Part shown: one piece after another, positions 21,963-52,515 of the stretch
How the letters are laid out: each line of letters starts with the position of its first letter
How positions within the stretch are numbered: position 1 is the first letter of the stretch
Source: an uncultured Candidatus Saccharibacteria bacterium
GTDB lineage: Bacteria > Patescibacteriota > Minisyncoccia > Phycocordibacterales > UBA3531
Assembly (NCBI GenBank): GCA_964361405.1
Contig: CAYIAA010000004.1
Span: forward strand, 10,508 to 74,507
DNA length: 64,000 nt
Direction: 5' to 3'
Translations under genes and position numbers: made by a program
Notes under the pieces: generated by a model
What the model was told of the DNA's origin: nothing
What the model saw: only the letters and a program-made list of their open reading frames with translations
Database searches by the model: none

Positions 21963-22008
21963 GGTATAGTGTTTGGGCCCTTAGCCCCTCACTTGGGATG
22001 GTCATGAT

Positions 22009-22278
22009 ATGTATTATGTATATGTACTGCAAAGCAAGAAGGATAGAAGTTTATACATTGGCTATACAAACGATCTGAAAAGGCGGTTTGAGGAACACAA
22101 TAAGAAATTAAGCAGATCAACAAAATTCAAAACGCCTTTTCAGCTCGTGTATTACGAAGCATATCAATCACGAGCCGATGCGCGATATCGTGAAGATAAT
22201 CTCAAACGATATTCTGGTGCGTATACGCATCTGCGACGCAGGATTAAGAACAGTGTCGCAGATGACCATCCCAAGTGA
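22009..22278 (+). CDS. Stand-alone GIY-YIG nuclease family protein (UPF0213-like)
   Basis: YYVYVLQSKKDRSLYIGYTNDLKRRFEEHN is the canonical GIY-YIG motif. The stop is 1 nt before the tRNA. Confidence 0.8.
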   Translation: MYYVYVLQSKKDRSLYIGYTNDLKRRFEEHNKKLSRSTKFKTPFQLVYYEAYQSRADARYREDNLKRYSGAYTHLRRRIKNSVADDHPK

Positions 22279-22279
22279 G

Positions 22280-22355
22280 GGGCCGTTAGCTTAGTTGGTA
22301 GAGCGCCACATTTGCAATGTGGAGGTCGCCGGTTCGAATCCGGCACGGTCCACCA
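22280..22355 (+). tRNA. tRNA-Ala(TGC), CCA encoded
   Basis: Hand-folded cloverleaf: acceptor GGGCCGT/ACGGTCC with G3:U70, anticodon stem CCACA/TGTGG, loop TTTGCAA (anticodon TGC), T-arm GCCGG TTCGAAT CCGGC, discriminator A, then CCA. Confidence 0.85.
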
Positions 22356-22706
22356 AACGAAACATTGTCGGAATTAAGAATATGGAGCGATTTTGCGGGA
22401 GGAAAAGGATTTGCTTTGCCCCGTCCGAATTGAAGCCCCGCCACACTGCCCGAATACTTGGAGGGCAGAACCCCGAAAGAAAAACACCCTTTCCTTTTTC
22501 AAAAGAAATTTCACCCCCGCCAAATCAGAAATGCAAGGAGTGTTTTTTCTTTCGGGGTTGCCGAGGCTCTGCGAGGCGGTGGCGGAACGATTCATTCTCG
22601 CTCAAAAAAAGTTCGAGCAAATGCTATAATAACATCACCAAATTAAACTTTCATCAGTCGTTAACTGGGGGATTGTCTAACATAGAAAAAGTGCTAAAAT
22701 ATTTCT

Positions 22707-28496: not shown

Positions 28497-29051
28497 TCAC
28501 GAGCATTTTTTCGATTCCATCAGGAAGTAGGAGGGGAAATTTAAGGGAATGAAGGAAATGTCCACATTACCGAATACCTCTTTGAGGGTTTTTGCCATTG
28601 TAGTCGAGTATTGATACACGATGAAAGAGCCGCCGGGAGTGAGCGCTTTACGTGTGTTTTCCACGATACTGCGGCGGAGACGTTTTTTGATGAAACTGAA
28701 GGGAATACTTGAAAACACGTACTGAACTTCCGTGATACCGAGCTCTGCGAGGATTTCCGGCAGATGTTGAGCGAAGTCATGAGCGATGGTAAGACGCGGG
28801 TCATTGATTGACGTGAGTTTTCCCACAAAATATGGATTTGATTCGATCGCGATCAATTTTGAACGAGGGGTCATTCGCTCCAGTATTTCTTTCGTTACTA
28901 CGCCATCGCCAGCACCGTACTCGACGACGGTTACGTCGCGCGAGAAATCAGCCGCGTCGCAGACTCTCGCTACCGCGAACTTTGAACTTTTTGTGATTGC
29001 GCCGACGCGGTAATCTTTAAGAAAAGTTTTAAAGTAGGTGAGTGTGGACAC
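28497..29051 (-). CDS. Class I SAM-dependent methyltransferase (small, rRNA adenine-dimethylase-like fold)
   Basis: VVEYGAGDGVVTKEIL glycine-rich SAM-binding motif I and an acidic motif II (IAIESNP). Confidence 0.7.
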   Translation of the reverse strand: MSTLTYFKTFLKDYRVGAITKSSKFAVARVCDAADFSRDVTVVEYGAGDGVVTKEILERMTPRSKLIAIESNPYFVGKLTSINDPRLTIAHDFAQHLPEILAELGITEVQYVFSSIPFSFIKKRLRRSIVENTRKALTPGGSFIVYQYSTTMAKTLKEVFGNVDISFIPLNFPSYFLMESKKCS

Positions 29052-29179
29052 GTTCGATAGTATACAAATAATACGTACTCCATGGAATCAAAACGGGAGA
29101 AAACCGTGTATAACTTAACCCCGCTTGTGCGGCTATTTCTTTTCTTGTATCGTGACTGCGGATGAAGCGCGATGATTTT

Positions 29180-29253
29180 GAGTCCGTAGCTCAGTTGGTT
29201 AGAGCACTGTCCTCACACGGCAGGGGTCGGTGGTTCGAATCCACCCGGGCTCA
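29180..29253 (+). tRNA. tRNA-Val(CAC), no encoded CCA
   Basis: Hand-folded: acceptor GAGTCCG/CGGGCTC, D-arm GCTC AGTTGGTTA GAGC, anticodon stem CTGTC/GGCAG, loop CTCACAC, T-arm GGTGG TTCGAAT CCACC, discriminator A. Confidence 0.8.
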
Positions 29254-29297
29254 CAGTAACTAGATGGATTCGAACCCGAGGAGATCGTCTCCTCTAT

Positions 29298-29537
29298 CGG
29301 GCACAGGTGTAACGGTAACATGCACGGTTTGGGGTTCCCTTTTGTGTCGGGGCATGGTGTAACGGTAACATGCACGGTTCGGGATCGTGTGACTCCGGGT
29401 TCGAATCCCGGTGCCCCGACACAAAAGGGAACCCAATGTCTGGGGGACATTGGAGGAAGTTTACAGAAATAAACTTGTTTGACTCCGGGTTCCCTGGCCG
29501 ACTGCGTCAGCGGACTAGGCGAATCCCGGTGCCCCGA
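29298..29537 (+). pseudogene. Disrupted tRNA-Pro-like copy. Its 5' fragment (29298-29330) and 3' fragment (29478-29537, with a 28-nt insertion in the T-loop) are separated by the intact tRNA-Pro(CGG) unit. The whole is flanked by a 21/22-nt inverted repeat (29284-29304 / 29529-29550).
   Basis: The 5' fragment shares GGTGTAACGGTAACATGCACGGTT (24/24) with the intact gene, but its acceptor is missing one G. The 3' fragment has CCGGG TT [CCCTGGCCGACTGCGTCAGCGGACTAGG] CGAAT CCCGG TGCCCCG A. Confidence 0.5.
29348..29419 (+). tRNA. tRNA-Pro(CGG), no encoded CCA. The leader and trailer form a perfect 23-bp helix that includes the acceptor stem.
   Basis: Hand-folded: acceptor CGGGGCA/TGCCCCG, D-arm GTGT AACGGTA ACAT, anticodon stem CACGG/TCGTG, loop TTCGGGA (CGG, G37), variable TGACT, T-arm CCGGG TTCGAAT CCCGG, discriminator A. 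Confidence 0.85.
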
Positions 29538-29570
29538 TAGAGGAGACGATTACTAATAGAGAGTTTGAAA

Positions 29571-29644
29571 GGGCCCGTAGTTCAGTGGTAAAACGCTCGA
29601 TTCGCATTCGAGAGGCGGGAGTCCGATTCTCCCCGGGTCCACCA
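29571..29644 (+). tRNA. tRNA-Ala(CGC), CCA encoded
   Basis: Acceptor GGGCCCG/CGGGTCC with G3:U70, anticodon stem CTCGA/TCGAG, loop TTCGCAT, T-arm GGGAG TCCGATT CTCCC, discriminator A, then CCA. Confidence 0.8.
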
Positions 29645-29667
29645 TTTCAGATTTGTCGAAGAAGTTG

Positions 29668-29698
29668 CCCCTGCCTGCCGGTAGGCAGGCAGGGGTTT
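29668..29698 (+). terminator. Terminator-like hairpin (12-bp stem CCCCTGCCTGCC/GGCAGGCAGGGG, loop GGTA) followed by TTT
   Basis: Seen directly, 24 nt after the last tRNA of the array. Confidence 0.5.
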
Positions 29699-29764
29699 CA
29701 CGCCACCGCAGAGAACGATTTTGGCCGGGTTGAGATGGTTGGATTTGCTATACTATTCTGAATA

Positions 29765-30121
29765 ATGAATATACTGATTATCGCGGAACCAATAACAATA
29801 AGTGAGGTTAAGGCGCTTGCCGAGGTGACCTACGGGGACATGCTTAAAGGGGTCGTTGATATTGTCCGCGACCGTTGCGCGCTTGGTGGCGAGTGGCATA
29901 TAGATGCTAATAATGTCCTTCTTGCCGACGGGTCGCGGCAGGAAAATCTTTGGGGATTCAACATTTATCCAGATCGCCACGGGGACGAAGCTCTTGAATA
30001 CGTGTCGCTTATCAATGTGCGTCCCGCGCACGGAAACACAGCAATGGAAATCAGCGATACAAACTTACGAAGCACGATGCGCAGTATTATCAAGCGCCTC
30101 GTCCCCGACTTATTTTCATGA
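29765..30121 (+). CDS. Hypothetical protein (118 aa). First gene of a translationally coupled pair.
   Basis: ATG at 29765. The stop overlaps the next start (ATGA). No confidently recognised domain. Confidence 0.5.
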   Translation: MNILIIAEPITISEVKALAEVTYGDMLKGVVDIVRDRCALGGEWHIDANNVLLADGSRQENLWGFNIYPDRHGDEALEYVSLINVRPAHGNTAMEISDTNLRSTMRSIIKRLVPDLFS

Positions 30122-33289: not shown

Positions 33290-34192
33290 TTGAGAAAAAT
33301 GCTTAAGGTATGGCTTAACGGCAAGATTGTTTCGGAGCAGAGAGCTCGCGTGTCCATTCGCGCACACGCTCTTCACTACGGCACCGGCGTCTTTGAGGGA
33401 ATCCGGTTTTACGATACGGAAAAAGGGAGAGCAATTTTTAGACTTGATGATCACATCAAGCGTCTCCGTTACTCCGCTCGGGCAATCGGGGTGCAAAATA
33501 TTCCAACTTCGGCAACTATACAAAAAGGAATCATAGACATACTCCGTGCGCACACGTACCGCTCTGGGTATATCCGCCCGATTATTTTTTTCGGAGAAAG
33601 TAATCTTGGGCTTTCCACAGAGGGTCTCAAGGCAGATTTTGCCGTTATTGTTTTGCCGTGGAAAAAATATCTTGCGAAGACATCTATTTCACTCAAGACC
33701 GCAGAGACGCGGCGATTTAACCCGCGCGCATTCGACCCGAACGCGAAGATAAGTGGTGTGTACGTAAATTCAATCACGGCGCACCGCGAAGCGGAAAAAG
33801 CTGGGTGCGACGAGGCACTTCTTCTTGGGGACGACGGCTCGGTCGCTGAAGGAGCAGGGGAGAATATTTTTATCATAAAGCGAGGAGTTCTCTATACGCC
33901 GCCCCGGGGGAATATTCTTCCCGGCATTACGCGGAAGACTGTATTTGAAATTGCAAGAAATTTTAAAATCCCCGTGCGGGAAAAACGCCTCCGCCTCGCC
34001 GATCTCTATCGCGCCGACGAATGTTTCCTCACGGGCACTGCCACGGAAGTGACGCCGGTCGGGCGTATTGACGGGAAATTAATCAATCGCGGCCGCGTTG
34101 GGGACAGTACGTCCCGGATCAGTGACAGATTTCAAGAGATTGTGAATGGTCGCGCGCGGAGCTATTGGCACTTACTCACATTCGTCGGGTAG
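33290..34192 (+). CDS. Class IV (branched-chain amino acid / D-amino acid) aminotransferase
   Basis: HYGTGVFEGIRFY. A Lys-containing active-site region. ENIFIIKRGVLYTPP...LPGITRKTVFEIA matches the fold type IV PLP enzymes. Confidence 0.85.
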   Translation: MRKMLKVWLNGKIVSEQRARVSIRAHALHYGTGVFEGIRFYDTEKGRAIFRLDDHIKRLRYSARAIGVQNIPTSATIQKGIIDILRAHTYRSGYIRPIIFFGESNLGLSTEGLKADFAVIVLPWKKYLAKTSISLKTAETRRFNPRAFDPNAKISGVYVNSITAHREAEKAGCDEALLLGDDGSVAEGAGENIFIIKRGVLYTPPRGNILPGITRKTVFEIARNFKIPVREKRLRLADLYRADECFLTGTATEVTPVGRIDGKLINRGRVGDSTSRISDRFQEIVNGRARSYWHLLTFVG

Positions 34193-34929
34193 CGTCGTAT
34201 GAGCGGGTCTTGGGAAGGGAGGCCAAGGCTCGAAATTTGTGCGACTCCCGTCACGCTTCCCCACTTGGAAGCGAAGCTTCCAAGTGGGGACTTTCGCATA
34301 CTGTGGACCCGCGGGGAGTCGGTCATCCCGCCAAGCGGGACGACCCCGCCTCACTCGCCTGTGCTCGTTCCGGCCTGCGACTCCCTGCAAATATACTGCC
34401 TAATTGTGGTCACGAGTCACTAAGTATATTGCTTCGCATTGCTCGCAATCTACGTAAGTGCTCGCGACCCCGGCTCGTGGTTTCGCCTCTCGACGAAACA
34501 TCACTGCGCCTTCCACAAGCTAAAAATTACGAGCAGTCGTAATTTTGCTTACGCTTGTGGACCCGCGGGGAGTCGGTCACATATAATTTTCTGCTGAAAA
34601 TTTATGCGACCCCGCCTCACTCGCCTGTGCTCGTTCCGGCCTGCGATCCCCGCCACGCTTCGCTACAGTATGCAAAAATCCCCACTAAAAAAGCAGGGAC
34701 TTTCGCATACTGTGGACCCGCGGGGAGTCGCACCCCGGATTCGTCCATGCCATGGACGCGTGTTACTGCTATACTACGGGCCCGTTACGGATTACGGATT
34801 CAATTATACACAGATATACACAGAGTTGCGGAAAATGAAAAAAAGAAGGTTCTCTTTCTTAGTATACTCTATAGATATGAACGCCCAAGAGTTTCTGGGG
34901 TGCGCTTTTGTGGTTAGAAGCCCATCTAA
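34193..34929. repeat. Repeat-rich noncoding region containing: a 39-nt direct repeat (34342-34380 = 34608-34646, identical); a second repeat family GGGACTTTCGCATACTGTGGACCCGCGGGGAGTCG (34287-34325, 34695-34729, partial at 34556-34579); and one copy of the dispersed palindrome (34258-34290).
   Basis: Seen directly by string comparison. The overlapping track ORFs here are judged spurious. Confidence 0.7.
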
Positions 34930-51397: not shown

Positions 51398-52515
51398 CAA
51401 TGTCAAGGGGAACCCTTGACAATAGTATGCGGCACAGCAAGGTTATAGTTGCCATGTCTGGCGGCGTGGATAGTTCCGTTTCCGCGGCGCTTCTTCACCG
51501 CGCGGGCTATGACGTTACCGGCGTTTTTATCCGCGTATGGTATCCGCCCGGGATTTATTGCTCGGCGGAAGACGACCGGCGTGATGCGCTCCGTGTGGCG
51601 GCTAAAATTGGTATTCCGCTTCTCACGGTCAATTTGGAAAAAGAGTACAAAACTGCGGTGATAGATTCGATGTTTCGTGAGTATACGCGCGGACGGACGC
51701 CCAACCCCGATATTCTCTGCAATGAAAAAGTAAAATTTGGAGCATTTCGTACGTGGGCGCGAAAGCGTGGAGTTGATGCAATCGCAACGGGTCACTATGC
51801 CCGGATTGTGAAACAAGACGGAACACTCCACCTCCGTGCCGGAAAAGATAAAGAAAAAGACCAAAGTTATTTTCTGTATCGCCTCGGAAATCGGGCACTC
51901 GCGCGGATTATTTTTCCTGTGGGAGCCATGGAGAAGAGTGAAGTACGGGCACTCGCGCGGCGATTTGGTCTCCCCACTGCGGAGAAGAAAGATAGCCAAG
52001 GGCTTTGCTTCGTGGGGAAATTTGATTTCAAGGAATTTTTGAAACACTATGTGCCAGTGAAATCCGGTACCGTGCTCGATACGAAAGGCAAAATCATCGG
52101 GCACCACGATGGAGCTCTTCTCTATACCATCGGCGAGCGGCATGGATTTAATGTGACAAAAAAAAGCCCGCACGATCCGCCGTACTACGTTGTTGGGCGT
52201 GACGTAAAAAAGAATACGCTTACTGTCGCTCGGGGAAATGAAGAAAAGAGATTTTTCAAACGAAAAATAATCCTCTCTCATCCCCACTGGGTTTCTGGAA
52301 AACCGCCCGCACTCTCGGGAACATACCGCGCCCGTATTCGCTACCGCCAACCGCTTCAATCCTGCCGATTAGTAAAACAACCCCCACTTGGAAGCGAAGC
52401 TTCCAAGTGGGGGTATATGGTTGTTTTTGATCGCCCCCAGAGAGCTGTCACGCCCGGGCAATCACTGGTTCTTTACCGCGGAATAGAGTGTCTCGGTGGA
52501 GGAGTGATTACATAG
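51391..52515 (+). CDS. mnmA: tRNA-specific 2-thiouridylase MnmA. It carries an in-frame 33-nt palindromic element near the C-terminus.
   Basis: PP-loop AMSGGVDSS, catalytic cysteines (DILCNEK; GLCFVG), C-terminal AVTPGQSLVLYRGIECLGGGVI. Confidence 0.9.
   Translation: MLTMSRGTLDNSMRHSKVIVAMSGGVDSSVSAALLHRAGYDVTGVFIRVWYPPGIYCSAEDDRRDALRVAAKIGIPLLTVNLEKEYKTAVIDSMFREYTRGRTPNPDILCNEKVKFGAFRTWARKRGVDAIATGHYARIVKQDGTLHLRAGKDKEKDQSYFLYRLGNRALARIIFPVGAMEKSEVRALARRFGLPTAEKKDSQGLCFVGKFDFKEFLKHYVPVKSGTVLDTKGKIIGHHDGALLYTIGERHGFNVTKKSPHDPPYYVVGRDVKKNTLTVARGNEEKRFFKRKIILSHPHWVSGKPPALSGTYRARIRYRQPLQSCRLVKQPPLGSEASKWGYMVVFDRPQRAVTPGQSLVLYRGIECLGGGVIT
52381..52413. repeat. Palindromic element CCCCCACTTGGAAGC-GAA-GCTTCCAAGTGGGGG (15-bp stem) inside the mnmA coding sequence. 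It encodes PPLGSEASKWG in-frame.
   Basis: Seen directly. The same core is at 34258-34290 and, in the opposite loop orientation, at 43955-43979. Confidence 0.8.

What the first reader, a model, noticed from the sequence alone, without database searches (positions are those of the whole stretch)
29254..29560. tRNA-Pro(CGG) with a perfect 23-bp leader/trailer helix, nested inside a broken second tRNA-Pro-like copy that has its own unrelated 21-bp leader/trailer inverted repeat
Seen directly.

(1) The intact tRNA-Pro(CGG) (29348-29419) is embedded in a perfect 23-nt inverted repeat, GGGTTCCCTTTTGTGTCGGGGCA (29332-29354) and TGCCCCGACACAAAAGGGAACCC (29412-29434). The precursor acceptor stem therefore continues as a 23-bp helix through the discriminator A, which pairs with leader T-1.

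(2) A 5' tRNA-Pro-like fragment lies just upstream (29298-29330). It shares the 24 nt GGTGTAACGGTAACATGCACGGTT with the intact gene, and the remnant of its anticodon loop is TTTGGGG.

(3) A matching 3' fragment lies downstream (29478-29537). Its T-loop is split by a 28-nt insert containing the palindrome GACTGCGTCAG.

(4) This outer broken copy is flanked by a second inverted repeat, ATCGTCTCCTCTATCGGGCAC (29284-29304) versus GTGCCCCGATAGAGGAGACGAT (29529-29550). It has the same architecture (leader T pairs with discriminator A) but a completely different sequence. The helix is therefore conserved in structure and not in sequence, which is compensatory covariation.

(5) A reverse-orientation T-arm-like fragment (TGGATTCGAACCCGAGG) lies at 29263-29280.

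Interpretations, both inference: (a) one tRNA-Pro unit was inserted into the anticodon loop of its paralog, a recombination scar of the kind left at integrase att sites in tRNA genes; (b) a lineage-specific tRNA-Pro precursor structure with an extended processing helix. The Val and Ala tRNAs in the same array lack any such helix.
Basis: partly seen in the sequence, partly recalled or inferred. Interest (0 to 1): 0.8.

Follow-up and report, generated by a model that had tools for sequence, protein, structure and literature searches.

The report
Hairpin-flanked tRNA genes nested in tRNAs
In this groundwater Patescibacteria genome a working proline tRNA gene, clamped by a perfect 23-bp hairpin stem, sits inside the anticodon loop of an older, now dead, proline tRNA gene, and the same nesting recurs for valine and alanine tRNAs in relatives, which points to an undescribed way of replacing tRNA genes from the inside.

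Summary
It is identical in four independent assemblies. The inner tRNA-Pro(CGG) (29348-29419) is a normal bacterial tRNA whose acceptor stem continues into a perfect 23-bp leader/trailer helix. The outer copy is a tRNA-Pro(UGG)-like pseudogene, split after nt 35 and again in its T-loop.

Two syntenic relatives (L009, L018) keep the identical inner tRNA and the helix. Six arm positions differ from the window, and all six are compensated. In those relatives the outer copy is decayed or truncated and has no helix of its own.

The architecture recurs:
- L009 and L018 have a foreign tRNA-Val(CAC) with its own arms, placed next to a 14-nt 5' piece of the resident Val.
- L021 has a tRNA-Ala(UGC) with 14-bp perfect arms (about 80-nt imperfect arms) exactly between nt 35 and 36 of an identical Ala gene.

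More distant relatives have plain tRNA-Pro genes. I found no group I intron and no target duplication. No integrase, transposase or reverse transcriptase was found in the window.

Best reading: a palindrome-flanked replacement tRNA cassette lands in a loop of the cognate gene and takes over. The arms probably act as an RNA clamp and processing stem, or are a DNA-templated palindrome. How the cassette inserts is unknown. I found no description of this in the literature library.

The parts
29122..29179 (+). Conserved promoter/leader block upstream of the tRNA array. One transcription unit Val ... Pro ... Ala is inferred.
   Evidence: Nearly invariant across window, L018 and L009, although the flanking CDS is only 75-83% identical. 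No promoter-like or terminator-like site on the + strand inside the array.
29180..29254 (+). Intact tRNA-Val(CAC) with no leader/trailer helix. This is the unsplit state of the gene that has a cassette beside a 14-nt 5' piece in L009 and L018.
   Evidence: comparison.
29263..29280 (+). Reverse-orientation T-arm copy (GGATTCGAACCCG is the reverse complement of 29396-29408). It also forms a local 7-bp hairpin with the outer leader (GAGGAGA / TCTCCTC).
   Evidence: I3, I4. The same kind of inverted T-arm piece lies next to tRNA remnants in L021, L031 and window 34239-34385.
29284..29297 (+). Outer leader arm ATCGTCTCCTCTAT.
   Evidence: I2. Related to the outer leader of L018 (GGTCGTTTTTTGTGT) and to the window's inner leader.
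29298..29331 (+). Outer 5' half of a tRNA-Pro(UGG)-like pseudogene (positions 1-35). Its acceptor strand is altered (CGGGCAC).
   Evidence: Only 77% (L018) and 63% (L009) identical to the window, against 99-100% for the inner tRNA.
29332..29347 (+). Inner leader arm GGGTTCCCTTTTGTGT.
29348..29419 (+). Functional tRNA-Pro(CGG): C1-G72, A73, no encoded CCA.
   Evidence: 72/72 identical in L009 and 71/72 in L018.
29419..29434 (+). Inner trailer arm: A73 plus CACAAAAGGGAACCC. It pairs with 29332-29347.
29433..29476 (+). Spacer with two small hairpins: CCAATGTC/GACATTGG at 29433-29453 and AAGTTTA/TAAACTT at 29457-29476.
   Evidence: Kept in L018 at 82% identity, with two compensated pairs and one G.U read by eye from the sequences. 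Replaced by an unrelated hairpin in L009.
29477..29492 (+). Outer 3' half, first piece: degraded anticodon-stem 3' strand, variable loop, T-stem 5' strand, TTC.
   Evidence: (D3).
29493..29519 (+). 27-28-nt hairpin-forming insert at the centre of the TTC|GAA T-loop of the outer copy.
   Evidence: Unique in the window.
29520..29536 (+). Outer 3' half, second piece: CGAAT, T-stem 3' strand, acceptor 3' strand.
   Evidence: D2. The 18-nt repeat 29520-29537 is 18/18 identical to the inner gene.
29537..29550 (+). Outer trailer arm: A73 plus TAGAGGAGACGAT. It pairs with 29284-29297.
   Evidence: I2.
29571..29644 (+). tRNA-Ala(CGC) with encoded CCA and no helix. It closes the array and is followed by the hairpin 29668-29695.
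   Evidence: (I5).

Best explanation
The locus is a layered tRNA-Pro gene. A short palindromic cassette lies just after nt 35 of the anticodon loop of an older tRNA-Pro(UGG-like) gene. The cassette is a 16-nt leader arm, tRNA-Pro(CGG), and a trailer arm that is the exact reverse complement of the leader. The older gene had the same leader/trailer architecture and is now a pseudogene.

This is one case of a recurrent DNA-level process in this Patescibacteria clade. A tRNA gene flanked by inverted repeats arrives from elsewhere, lands in a loop of the resident gene of the same identity, and takes over its function. The outer halves then decay. Insertions into other essential tRNA genes would be lethal, which may be why only same-identity nestings are seen.

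The whole array is read as one transcript. In that transcript the arms extend the inner acceptor stem to 21-23 bp.

Steps that are shown:
- the nesting itself and its recurrence;
- the foreign origin of the Val cassette;
- the decay of the outer copies;
- the complementarity of the arms, which is kept through substitutions.

Steps that are inferred:
- The helix keeps the inner tRNA folding on its own despite the homologous outer halves. It gives a double-strand RNase (RNase III type) an entry site before RNase P and 3' trimming.
- The palindrome also reflects how the cassette is made or inserted. One possibility is a snap-back single strand whose 3' end is primed on the acceptor stem and is then ligated into a break at the tip of a stem-loop. 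This would explain why the arms abut position 1 and position 73/76 exactly, why there is no target duplication, and why the arm pairs are almost all Watson-Crick.
For: Nesting is real.
- It is reproduced in independent assemblies.
- The outer copy with its inserts removed is still called tRNA-Pro(tgg).

The inner helix is kept by compensation.
- 23 pairs, 6 changed on both sides, none changed on one side only, 95.7% of cells paired.
- Controls with the 3' partner slid by 1-3 columns give 35-54% paired.

Outer copies decay.
- Outer 5' half: 63-77% identity, against 99-100% for the inner tRNA.
- The outer T arm is deleted in L018 and the outer 3' half is absent in L009.

The architecture recurs.
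- L009 and L018: the 14-nt 5' piece GAGTCCGTAGCTCA of the resident Val is followed by arms and a different tRNA-Val(cac). In L009 the resident anticodon arm follows.
- L021 clade, six assemblies: tRNA-Ala(tgc) with a 21-nt inverted repeat that runs through ACCA. It lies exactly between nt 35 and 36 of an Ala gene whose 35-nt and 39-nt halves are 100% identical to the inner gene.

The cassette comes from elsewhere.
- Val#2 differs from the resident Val in the acceptor, anticodon and T stems.
- The L021 arms are unrelated to the outer flanks. They are about 25% decayed distally while the outer halves are intact.
- L018 and L009 share identical arms although their flanking CDS is only 72% identical.

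The arms help predicted folding.
- Shuffling the L021 left arm drops the inner acceptor-stem probability from 0.98 to 0.33.
- In the window the drop is from 0.96 to 0.85.

The arms are not a general tRNA feature.
- Plain tRNA-Pro(CGG) in L001, L002, L011, L012 and L021.
- Other tRNAs of the window have no helix.
Against: - No second copy of any cassette in a different genomic context was found, so mobility is inferred rather than seen.
- The arms of different cassettes share no terminal sequence, as the ends of a transposon family would.
- No enzyme is identified. No transposase, integrase, reverse transcriptase or RNase III is among the ORFs of the window.
- The compensated changes amount to one evolutionary step (window versus L009 plus L018). 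They could equally come from arm-to-arm DNA copying or from allele replacement by recombination.
- 141 Watson-Crick pairs against 1 G.U in 11 arm helices fits DNA templating better than RNA-only selection.
- The outer helix of the window is perfect although the outer gene is dead. A pure RNA-function account does not explain this.
- The Val case can also be read as an insertion upstream of the resident gene with a 14-nt duplication, not a split.
- Only three lineages were available.
Confidence: 0.5

Rival explanations
1. Repair scars with no function. tRNA genes are quasi-palindromes and act as fragile sites. Breaks at stem-loop tips are repaired by fold-back synthesis and template switching. 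This creates inverted copies and partial duplications. Continued arm-to-arm templating keeps the arms perfect. In this view nothing is mobile and the helices have no RNA role.
For: - Arm pairs are almost all Watson-Crick (141 against 1 G.U).
- Arms start exactly at stem ends.
- Insert positions coincide with dyad centres: Ala 35|36 inside TTGCAA, and T-loop TTC|GAA.
- Many inverted partial T-arm copies and repeated 3' fragments lie next to tRNAs in the window (34239-34579), L021 and L031.
- The outer Pro leader of L018 resembles the inner Pro leader of the window, as expected for a local self-copy.
Against: - The inner Val is a different allele from the resident Val, so it did not arise by local copying.
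- The L021 arms are unrelated to local flanks.
- In L021 the 14 arm positions next to the tRNA are perfect while the distal roughly 62 aligned positions carry about 27% mismatches. By my estimate the chance of that is about 0.01, which suggests constraint near the tRNA.
- The functional copy always sits in the centre.
Confidence: 0.22
2. Processing stem only. The leader/trailer helix is a lineage-specific precursor element, an RNase III-type stem like those that flank rRNAs. The nested half-copies are unrelated junk from occasional duplication.
For: - Compensated helix in two relatives.
- Helix length of 21-23 bp in all three.
- Co-transcription is likely.
- Predicted fold z = -9.6.
Against: - Helices occur only on nested cassettes, for three different tRNA identities. 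They are absent on the other tRNAs of the same array and window.
- They are absent in more distant tRNA-Pro(CGG) orthologs.
- The dead outer copy also has a helix.
- There are virtually no G.U pairs.
Confidence: 0.13
3. The outer genes are functional, and the insert is a new kind of bacterial tRNA intron that happens to contain a tRNA. A long helix brings the two exon ends together for cleavage and ligation.
For: - In L021 both outer halves are 74/74 identical to the inner gene, although the arms have decayed.
- The insert lies at 35/36, the site reported for group I introns in Patescibacteria tRNAs (PMC13011429).
- The predicted fold is a cloverleaf with an extended anticodon helix.
- One strain (L025) carries a C6.A67 mismatch in the inner copy.
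Against: - No group I or group II hit.
- The insert ends in A rather than G, the 5' exon ends in G rather than U, and the non-tRNA part is only about 130 nt.
- I saw no bulge-helix-bulge motif at the junctions.
- The window, L018 and L009 outer copies are clearly decayed or truncated.
Confidence: 0.06
4. Remnants of integrase-mediated insertions at tRNA att sites in the anticodon loop or T-loop.
For: - Insert positions in the anticodon loop and T-loop match the classic att sublocations. This is established knowledge recalled from memory (Williams 2002).
- Repeated 3' fragments lie downstream of tRNA-Ala(GGC) at 34303-34579.
Against: - The 5' halves are duplicated and a complete gene is enclosed. 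An att crossover does not produce this.
- The inserts are only 141-237 nt.
- The two junctions do not share a core sequence.
- No integrase is found in the window.
Confidence: 0.05
5. Assembly artefact.
For: The region is repeat-rich, and some Logan contigs end near it.
Against: - Identical sequence in the ENA contig and in Logan assemblies of three runs.
- Homologous nested structures in L009, L018 and six L021-type assemblies.
Confidence: 0.01

Closest known systems
Archaeal split and intron-containing tRNA genes (Nanoarchaeum and Caldivirga split tRNAs; bulge-helix-bulge introns). Recalled from memory.
   Same: A 5' half is followed, and a 3' half is preceded, by mutually complementary sequences. 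These form a helix next to the anticodon stem. The insert sits in the anticodon loop.
   Different: The host is bacterial. I saw no 3-4-3 bulge-helix-bulge motif at the junctions. The insert contains a complete working tRNA of the same identity. The outer copies decay, so they are not being spliced.
Group I introns at position 35/36 of Patescibacteria tRNA genes (Nakagawa et al. 2026, PMC13011429).
   Same: Same phylum. Same insertion point (35/36) for the L021 Ala case and probably for the window Pro case.
   Different: No Rfam group I match. The insert does not end in G, and there is no U before the 5' junction. The insert is too short. Its core is a tRNA clamped by a helix.
tRNA-gene att sites of integrative elements. 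Recalled from memory.
   Same: Anticodon-loop and T-loop target positions. Leftover tRNA fragments.
   Different: Both halves are duplicated around a whole gene. The insert is tiny. There is no integrase. The junctions do not share a core sequence.
Fold-back miniature elements (MITEs, Correia, REPIN) and rRNA intervening sequences or processing stems cut by RNase III. Recalled from memory.
   Same: Short non-coding inserts whose ends are inverted repeats. These fold into long RNA hairpins within transcripts. Helices of about 20 bp or more are typical RNase III substrates.
   Different: The payload is a functional tRNA. The arm sequences are not shared between copies. There is no target duplication. 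Only a single copy is seen per genome segment examined. The target is the cognate tRNA gene.

Membership tests
Group I intron | Conserved P3-P9 catalytic core detectable by the Rfam model | tested here: not met
   No Intron_gpI hit at E <= 10 in window 28900-29900 or L021 2600-3400.
Group I intron | U at the end of the 5' exon and G as the last intron base | tested here: not met
   L021 junctions are ...CATTTG|TCCC and ...GGGGA|CAAT, and the boundaries cannot be shifted. The defining feature itself is established knowledge.
Archaeal-type bulge-helix-bulge intron or split tRNA | Two 3-nt bulges separated by a 4-bp helix at the splice sites | tested here: not met
   In the predicted folds the junctions lie inside a continuous helix (G35-C36 stacked on U-A), not in bulges. 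This was read by eye. No dedicated motif search was run.
Archaeal-type bulge-helix-bulge intron or split tRNA | Presence of a splicing endonuclease (EndA) and a ligase in the genome | not testable with these tools
   Only 64 kb of the genome is available, and none is seen among its ORFs.
Integrase att-site scar in a tRNA gene | Direct repeat of the 3' portion only, bounding an element that carries or carried an integrase | tested here: not met
   The 5' half is duplicated as well. The insert is 141-237 nt. No PF00589-type protein is found in the window.
MITE or fold-back transposable element | Terminal inverted repeats | tested here: met
   Perfect arms of 14-16 nt next to the tRNA. In L021 the imperfect arms of about 80 nt reach both insert ends (TCCCGAAAA...TTTTGGGGA).
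MITE or fold-back transposable element | Target-site duplication | tested here: not met
   No direct repeat at the L021 or window Pro junctions. The Val case is ambiguous.
MITE or fold-back transposable element | Multiple copies with shared terminal sequence | tested here: inconclusive
   The arms are unique in the window and in the fetched loci. The arms of the Pro, Val and Ala cassettes share no motif. Whole genomes could not be searched.
RNase III processing stem | Uninterrupted double-stranded RNA of about two helical turns in the transcript | tested here: met
   23 bp in the window, 22 bp in L018, 21 bp in L009 and 21 bp in L021.
RNase III processing stem | Actual cleavage with a 2-nt 3' overhang | not testable with these tools
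   Needs RNA end mapping.
Bacterial tRNA-Pro (inner gene) | Cloverleaf, C1-G72, A73, NGG anticodon | tested here: met
   (61.2 bits against a gathering score of 29). Sequence. The identity elements are recalled from memory.

The most novel reading that the evidence does not exclude
A previously unrecognised class of selfish or semi-selfish genetic element in Patescibacteria. It would be a protein-less, palindrome-flanked tRNA gene that spreads between genomes, perhaps through DNA uptake. It inserts at the tip of a stem-loop of the resident cognate tRNA gene. That destroys the resident copy and makes the host depend on the incoming copy. Repeated rounds would give onion-like layers of dead tRNA halves. 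The hairpin arms would be both the insertion structure (DNA) and the maturation signal (RNA).
Probability: 0.3. Interest if true: 0.85.

Novelty: new variant of a known kind. Interest (0 to 1): 0.7.

Why it matters
tRNA genes are usually treated as passive landing sites for mobile DNA. Here the incoming DNA is itself a tRNA gene of the same identity. It is packaged in a hairpin, and the resident gene is replaced from the inside.

If the process is general in Patescibacteria, four things follow:
- It is a new route of tRNA gene turnover and horizontal exchange in the smallest bacterial genomes.
- It explains the tRNA-fragment debris seen around their tRNA genes.
- It warns annotators that half-genes and inverted T-arm pieces near tRNAs are layered relics.
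- It gives a natural test case for how extended leader/trailer helices affect RNase P, RNase Z and RNase III processing.

It also bears on the old debate about how split and intron-containing tRNA genes arise. A half, arm ... arm, half arrangement is generated here by insertion, not by ancestry.

Tried and rejected
- **Group I or group II intron.** No Rfam hit, and the junction bases are wrong.
- **Integrase scar.** No integrase, and the duplication pattern is wrong.
- **Phage origin.** The tRNA-Pro and Val#2 patterns give no hit in viral contigs.
- **Repeated small element for the 28-nt T-loop insert.** It is unique in the window and in the loci.
- **Synteny through DUF5674 homologs.** The closest contigs are too short or not syntenic.
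- **Further methyltransferase homologs (P0111, P0112, P0115).** Not syntenic.
- **Literature.** Nothing was found on nested tRNA genes or on GIY-YIG next to tRNAs in Patescibacteria. One search failed.
- **Strand asymmetry of wobble-compatible mismatches in the decayed distal L021 arms.** Counting by eye on the alignment gave about 5 against 4, so there is no sign of RNA-level selection there.
- **The GIY-YIG nuclease gene near tRNA-Ala(TGC) as the mobilising enzyme.** Its position after ddl is conserved in distant genomes. It looks like a long-resident gene, and its arms share a core (CCCTCAC) that the tRNA cassettes lack. The link remains only a lead.
Full report
**1. What is there**

ARAGORN finds three + strand tRNA genes in the array: Val(cac) 29180-29254, Pro(cgg) 29348-29420 and Ala(cgc) 29571-29644. 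Rfam agrees, at 66.8, 61.2 and 62.8 bits.

- a 23-nt perfect inverted repeat, 29332-29354 / 29412-29434, around tRNA-Pro;
- an 18-nt perfect inverted repeat, 29284-29301 / 29533-29550, which continues after one bulged C into CAC/GTG;
- a direct copy of the 5' half, 29297-29333 against 29347-29383;
- two direct copies of the 3' part, 29477-29492 and 29520-29537;
- a reverse-complement T-arm piece, 29266-29278.

The RNA fold of 29255-29570 contains both nested helices at -150.7 kcal/mol, z = -9.6. In the whole 64-kb window the three longest perfect inverted repeats within 400 nt of each other (23, 22 and 18 nt) all touch tRNA ends.

The window comes from a 195-kb contig of a Hainich groundwater metagenome (ENA ERZ1292627). 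The neighbouring genes look like a Patescibacteria chromosome: pilin-like proteins, DUF5674, ddl, uvrABC, tgt. The nested region is base-for-base identical in Logan assemblies of ERR3858113, ERR3858115 and SRR32696705. It is therefore not an assembler artefact.

**2. The inner gene works and the outer gene is dead**

The inner gene is a standard bacterial tRNA-Pro with C1-G72 and A73.

When the 141-nt anticodon-loop insert and the 27-28-nt T-loop insert are removed in silico, ARAGORN still calls the outer copy tRNA-Pro(tgg). But its acceptor 5' strand (CGGGCAC) no longer matches the 3' strand, and two positions of the anticodon-stem 3' strand are changed.

**3. Relatives**

Exact-pattern scans of GTDB genomes and JGI metagenomes gave four distant Patescibacteria tRNA-Pro(CGG) loci (L001, L002, L011, L012). 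None has leader/trailer complementarity.

One hit, L009, is a true syntenic relative. It has the same methyltransferase gene at 75% nt identity, the same promoter block and the same Ala gene. A second syntenic relative, L018, was reached through the methyltransferase protein, with 83% nt identity.

In both relatives the inner tRNA-Pro is 72/72 or 71/72 identical to the window. It is flanked by GGTTATCCCCCGTGT / ACACGGGGGATAAC(C). Six arm positions differ from the window, including TTTT/AAAA against CCCC/GGGG. All six are compensated and none is changed on one side only. 95.7% of cells are paired, against 35-54% when the 3' partner is slid.

The outer copy behaves as a pseudogene:
- Its 5' half is only 77% (L018) and 63% (L009) identical to the window.
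- Anticodon position 35 reads G, T or A in the three loci.
- L018 has lost the outer T arm and has no trailer complementary to its outer leader.
- L009 has lost the outer 3' half altogether.

The outer leader of L018 (GGTCGTTTTTTGTGT) resembles the inner leader of the window (…CCCTTTTGTGT). The outer and inner units are therefore paralogous, leader included.

**4. The architecture recurs with other tRNAs**

*Val in L009 and L018.* The first 14 nt of the window-type tRNA-Val (GAGTCCGTAGCTCA) are followed by three pieces:
- an arm, A[A/G]CTTGTCCCGTTACACTT;
- a different tRNA-Val(cac), with other acceptor, anticodon and T stems;
- a trailer, ACTCGT-AAGTGTAACGGGA-TG-AAGTT, which pairs with the arm over 13 + 5 bp.

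In L009 the anticodon arm of the resident Val (GCACTGTCCTCACACG…) follows further on. The window keeps the unsplit resident Val.

*Ala in L021.* This is a more distant relative, with a 59% identical methyltransferase protein and a plain tRNA-Pro. Its tRNA-Ala(tgc) lies in a 237-nt insert placed exactly between nt 35 and 36 of a second Ala gene.
- The outer 35-nt and 39-nt halves are 100% identical to the inner gene.
- The 21-nt inverted repeat runs from the acceptor stem through ACCA (leader …ACAAGCATTGTGGT).
- Beyond it the two arms remain an imperfect inverted repeat over their whole length of about 80 nt, up to the insert ends.
- The predicted fold is a cloverleaf within a cloverleaf, at -159 kcal/mol, z = -11.3.
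- The locus is 99.5-99.7% identical in six assemblies from different samples.

**5. What it is not**

- No group I intron is detected. The junction bases also exclude one. Group I introns at 35/36 are the only tRNA insertions described so far for this phylum (PMC13011429).
- There is no target duplication at the Pro or Ala junctions.
- There is no integrase, transposase, reverse transcriptase or RNase III among the ORFs of at least 110 aa in the window.
- There is no match in viral contigs.

**6. How it most likely works**

*Shown.* A tRNA gene flanked by inverted repeats has repeatedly come to lie inside, or directly against a fragment of, the resident gene of the same identity. The enclosed copy stays intact and the outer one decays.

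The incoming unit is not always a local copy:
- Val#2 is a different allele from the resident Val.
- The L021 arms are unrelated to the local flanks. They are about 25% decayed distally while the outer halves are still perfect. This suggests an old cassette that arrived recently.

The array is also a recombination mosaic:
- L018 and L009 share identical arms and the Val cassette, although their flanking CDS is the most divergent pair (72%).
- The window and L009 share an identical Ala(cgc) and nearly identical downstream sequence (99% over 99 nt), while the L018 Ala is only 70% identical.

*Inferred (a), the RNA role.* The array appears to be one transcript. It has a conserved upstream block and no internal promoter-like or terminator-like site on the + strand. 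In that transcript the arms lengthen the inner acceptor stem to 21-23 bp.

In partition-function calculations, shuffling the arm lowers the probability of the inner acceptor stem:
- from 0.98 to 0.33 in L021, where the outer halves are identical competitors;
- from 0.96 to 0.85 in the window, where they are decayed.

A perfect helix of two turns is also the classical substrate of RNase III. A fully paired leader would be expected to hinder RNase P until it is opened. This last point is established knowledge and was not tested here.

*Inferred (b), the DNA side.*
- The arms begin exactly at position 1 and at position 73 (or 76).
- They are almost purely Watson-Crick, with 141 pairs against 1 G.U in 11 helices.
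- Inserts sit at dyad centres: 35|36 within TTGCAA for Ala, and TTC|GAA in the T-loop.
- There is no target duplication.

All of this fits a snap-back single strand whose 3' end, primed on the acceptor stem, copies the opposite flank and is then joined into a break at a hairpin tip. Arm-to-arm templating could also keep the arms identical.

I cannot separate RNA selection from DNA templating with three lineages. In L021 the 14 arm positions next to the tRNA are perfect while the distal part has about 27% mismatches. By my estimate the chance of that is about 0.01. Something therefore constrains the proximal helix.

**7. Rivals**

- **Pure repair scars without mobility or function** remain plausible (0.22). 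They explain the Watson-Crick purity and the surrounding inverted T-arm debris. They do not explain the foreign Val allele or the foreign L021 arms.
- **A processing stem alone** (0.13) does not explain why helices occur only on nested cassettes.
- **A new kind of intron** (0.06) is suggested only by the perfect outer halves of L021 and by one inner-copy mismatch in strain L025. The decayed outer copies elsewhere contradict it.
- **Integrase scars** (0.05) and **misassembly** (0.01) are unlikely.

**8. Verdict**

The finding is best described as a recurrent, so far undescribed form of tRNA gene replacement by hairpin-flanked cassettes in a Patescibacteria clade. The insertion mechanism is unknown.

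I rate it as a new variant of known kinds (fold-back insertions and processing stems). I give about 0.3 probability that it is a distinct class of protein-less selfish tRNA element. Interest 0.7.

Noticed in passing
window 21976-22355: A small GIY-YIG nuclease gene (22009-22278, 89 aa, Pfam E = 3.6e-16) is enclosed by a perfect 22-nt inverted repeat (21984-22005 / 22262-22283). The right arm of this repeat is the leader plus the first 4 nt of tRNA-Ala(TGC). An 11-nt direct copy of the tRNA 5' end (GGGCCCTTAGC, 21976-21986) precedes the left arm. In the predicted fold the upstream copy pairs with the tRNA 3' acceptor strand and the 22-bp helix closes off the ORF.
   Followed up: partly
L032 1765-1912; L034 1477-1832: The order ddl, GIY-YIG, tRNA-Ala(TGC) is conserved in distant Patescibacteria. 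Both loci again show the 11-nt tRNA 5' copy, followed by an arm beginning CCCTCACATG that is the reverse complement of the tRNA leader plus GGGC. In L034 the arms enclose the ORF. In L032 they enclose only a 25-nt hairpin, and the ORF lies upstream. Arm length and sequence differ between genomes, but the arms stay complementary. The layout looks like terminal inverted repeats with an 11-bp target duplication. The protein family is very large in this phylum, with 968 hits at E <= 1e-8.
   Followed up: partly
window 34150-34783 (minus strand): tRNA-Ala(GGC) is followed by two further exact copies of its last 19 nt (34575-34557 and 34321-34303). Each copy is preceded by the T-stem 5' strand, a different hairpin inserted in the T-loop, and an inverted T-arm piece (34376-34385, 34239-34249). 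A 45-nt unit is repeated at 96% identity. ORFs listed here (34165-34542, 34555-34917) are probably not genes.
   Followed up: partly
L021 3154-3267; L031 1737-1866: The same debris pattern lies downstream of other Patescibacteria tRNA-Ala genes. An inverted T-arm piece (GGAGATTCGAAC or TGGGGGATTCGAAC) is followed 80-100 nt later by a 3' fragment that starts in the T-loop (CGAATC…CCA). The two pieces form a 10-11-bp helix around the intervening sequence.
   Followed up: no
window 22469-22559: A 16-nt perfect inverted repeat (AACCCCGAAAGAAAAA / TTTTTCTTTCGGGGTT) with 59 nt between the arms lies about 110 nt downstream of tRNA-Ala(TGC). Its content is not tRNA-like.
   Followed up: no
window 34258-34290 and 52380-52414: Two hairpins share the core CCCCACTTGGAAGC / GCTTCCAAGTGGGG at distant places in the window. 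This may be a small repeated palindromic element or a shared terminator.
   Followed up: no
L018 1982-2053 versus window 29571-29641 and L009 1336-1406: The tRNA-Ala(CGC) of L018 is only 70% identical to that of the window and L009. The window and L009 genes are identical to each other and their downstream sequence is nearly so (99% over 99 nt), although L018 is the closer relative by the flanking CDS. L018 also has about 400 extra nt between the methyltransferase gene and the array promoter. The tRNA array is a recombination mosaic.
   Followed up: partly
L025 2977; L009 1083-1089: Two possible defects in inner copies. L025 has G2977A, which gives a C6.A67 mismatch in the inner tRNA-Ala, while its outer half keeps G. 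The inner tRNA-Val of L009 has an A.C mismatch in the T stem (GGAGG/CCCCC), where L018 has GGAGG/CCTCC.
   Followed up: no
L013 1-110: In the closest DUF5674 relative (92% aa identity) the tRNA-Ala(CGC) 3' end lacks the encoded CCA. It is followed by a long hairpin, TTGCAAAAG…CTTTTGCAA, where the window has CCA plus a different terminator hairpin.
   Followed up: no
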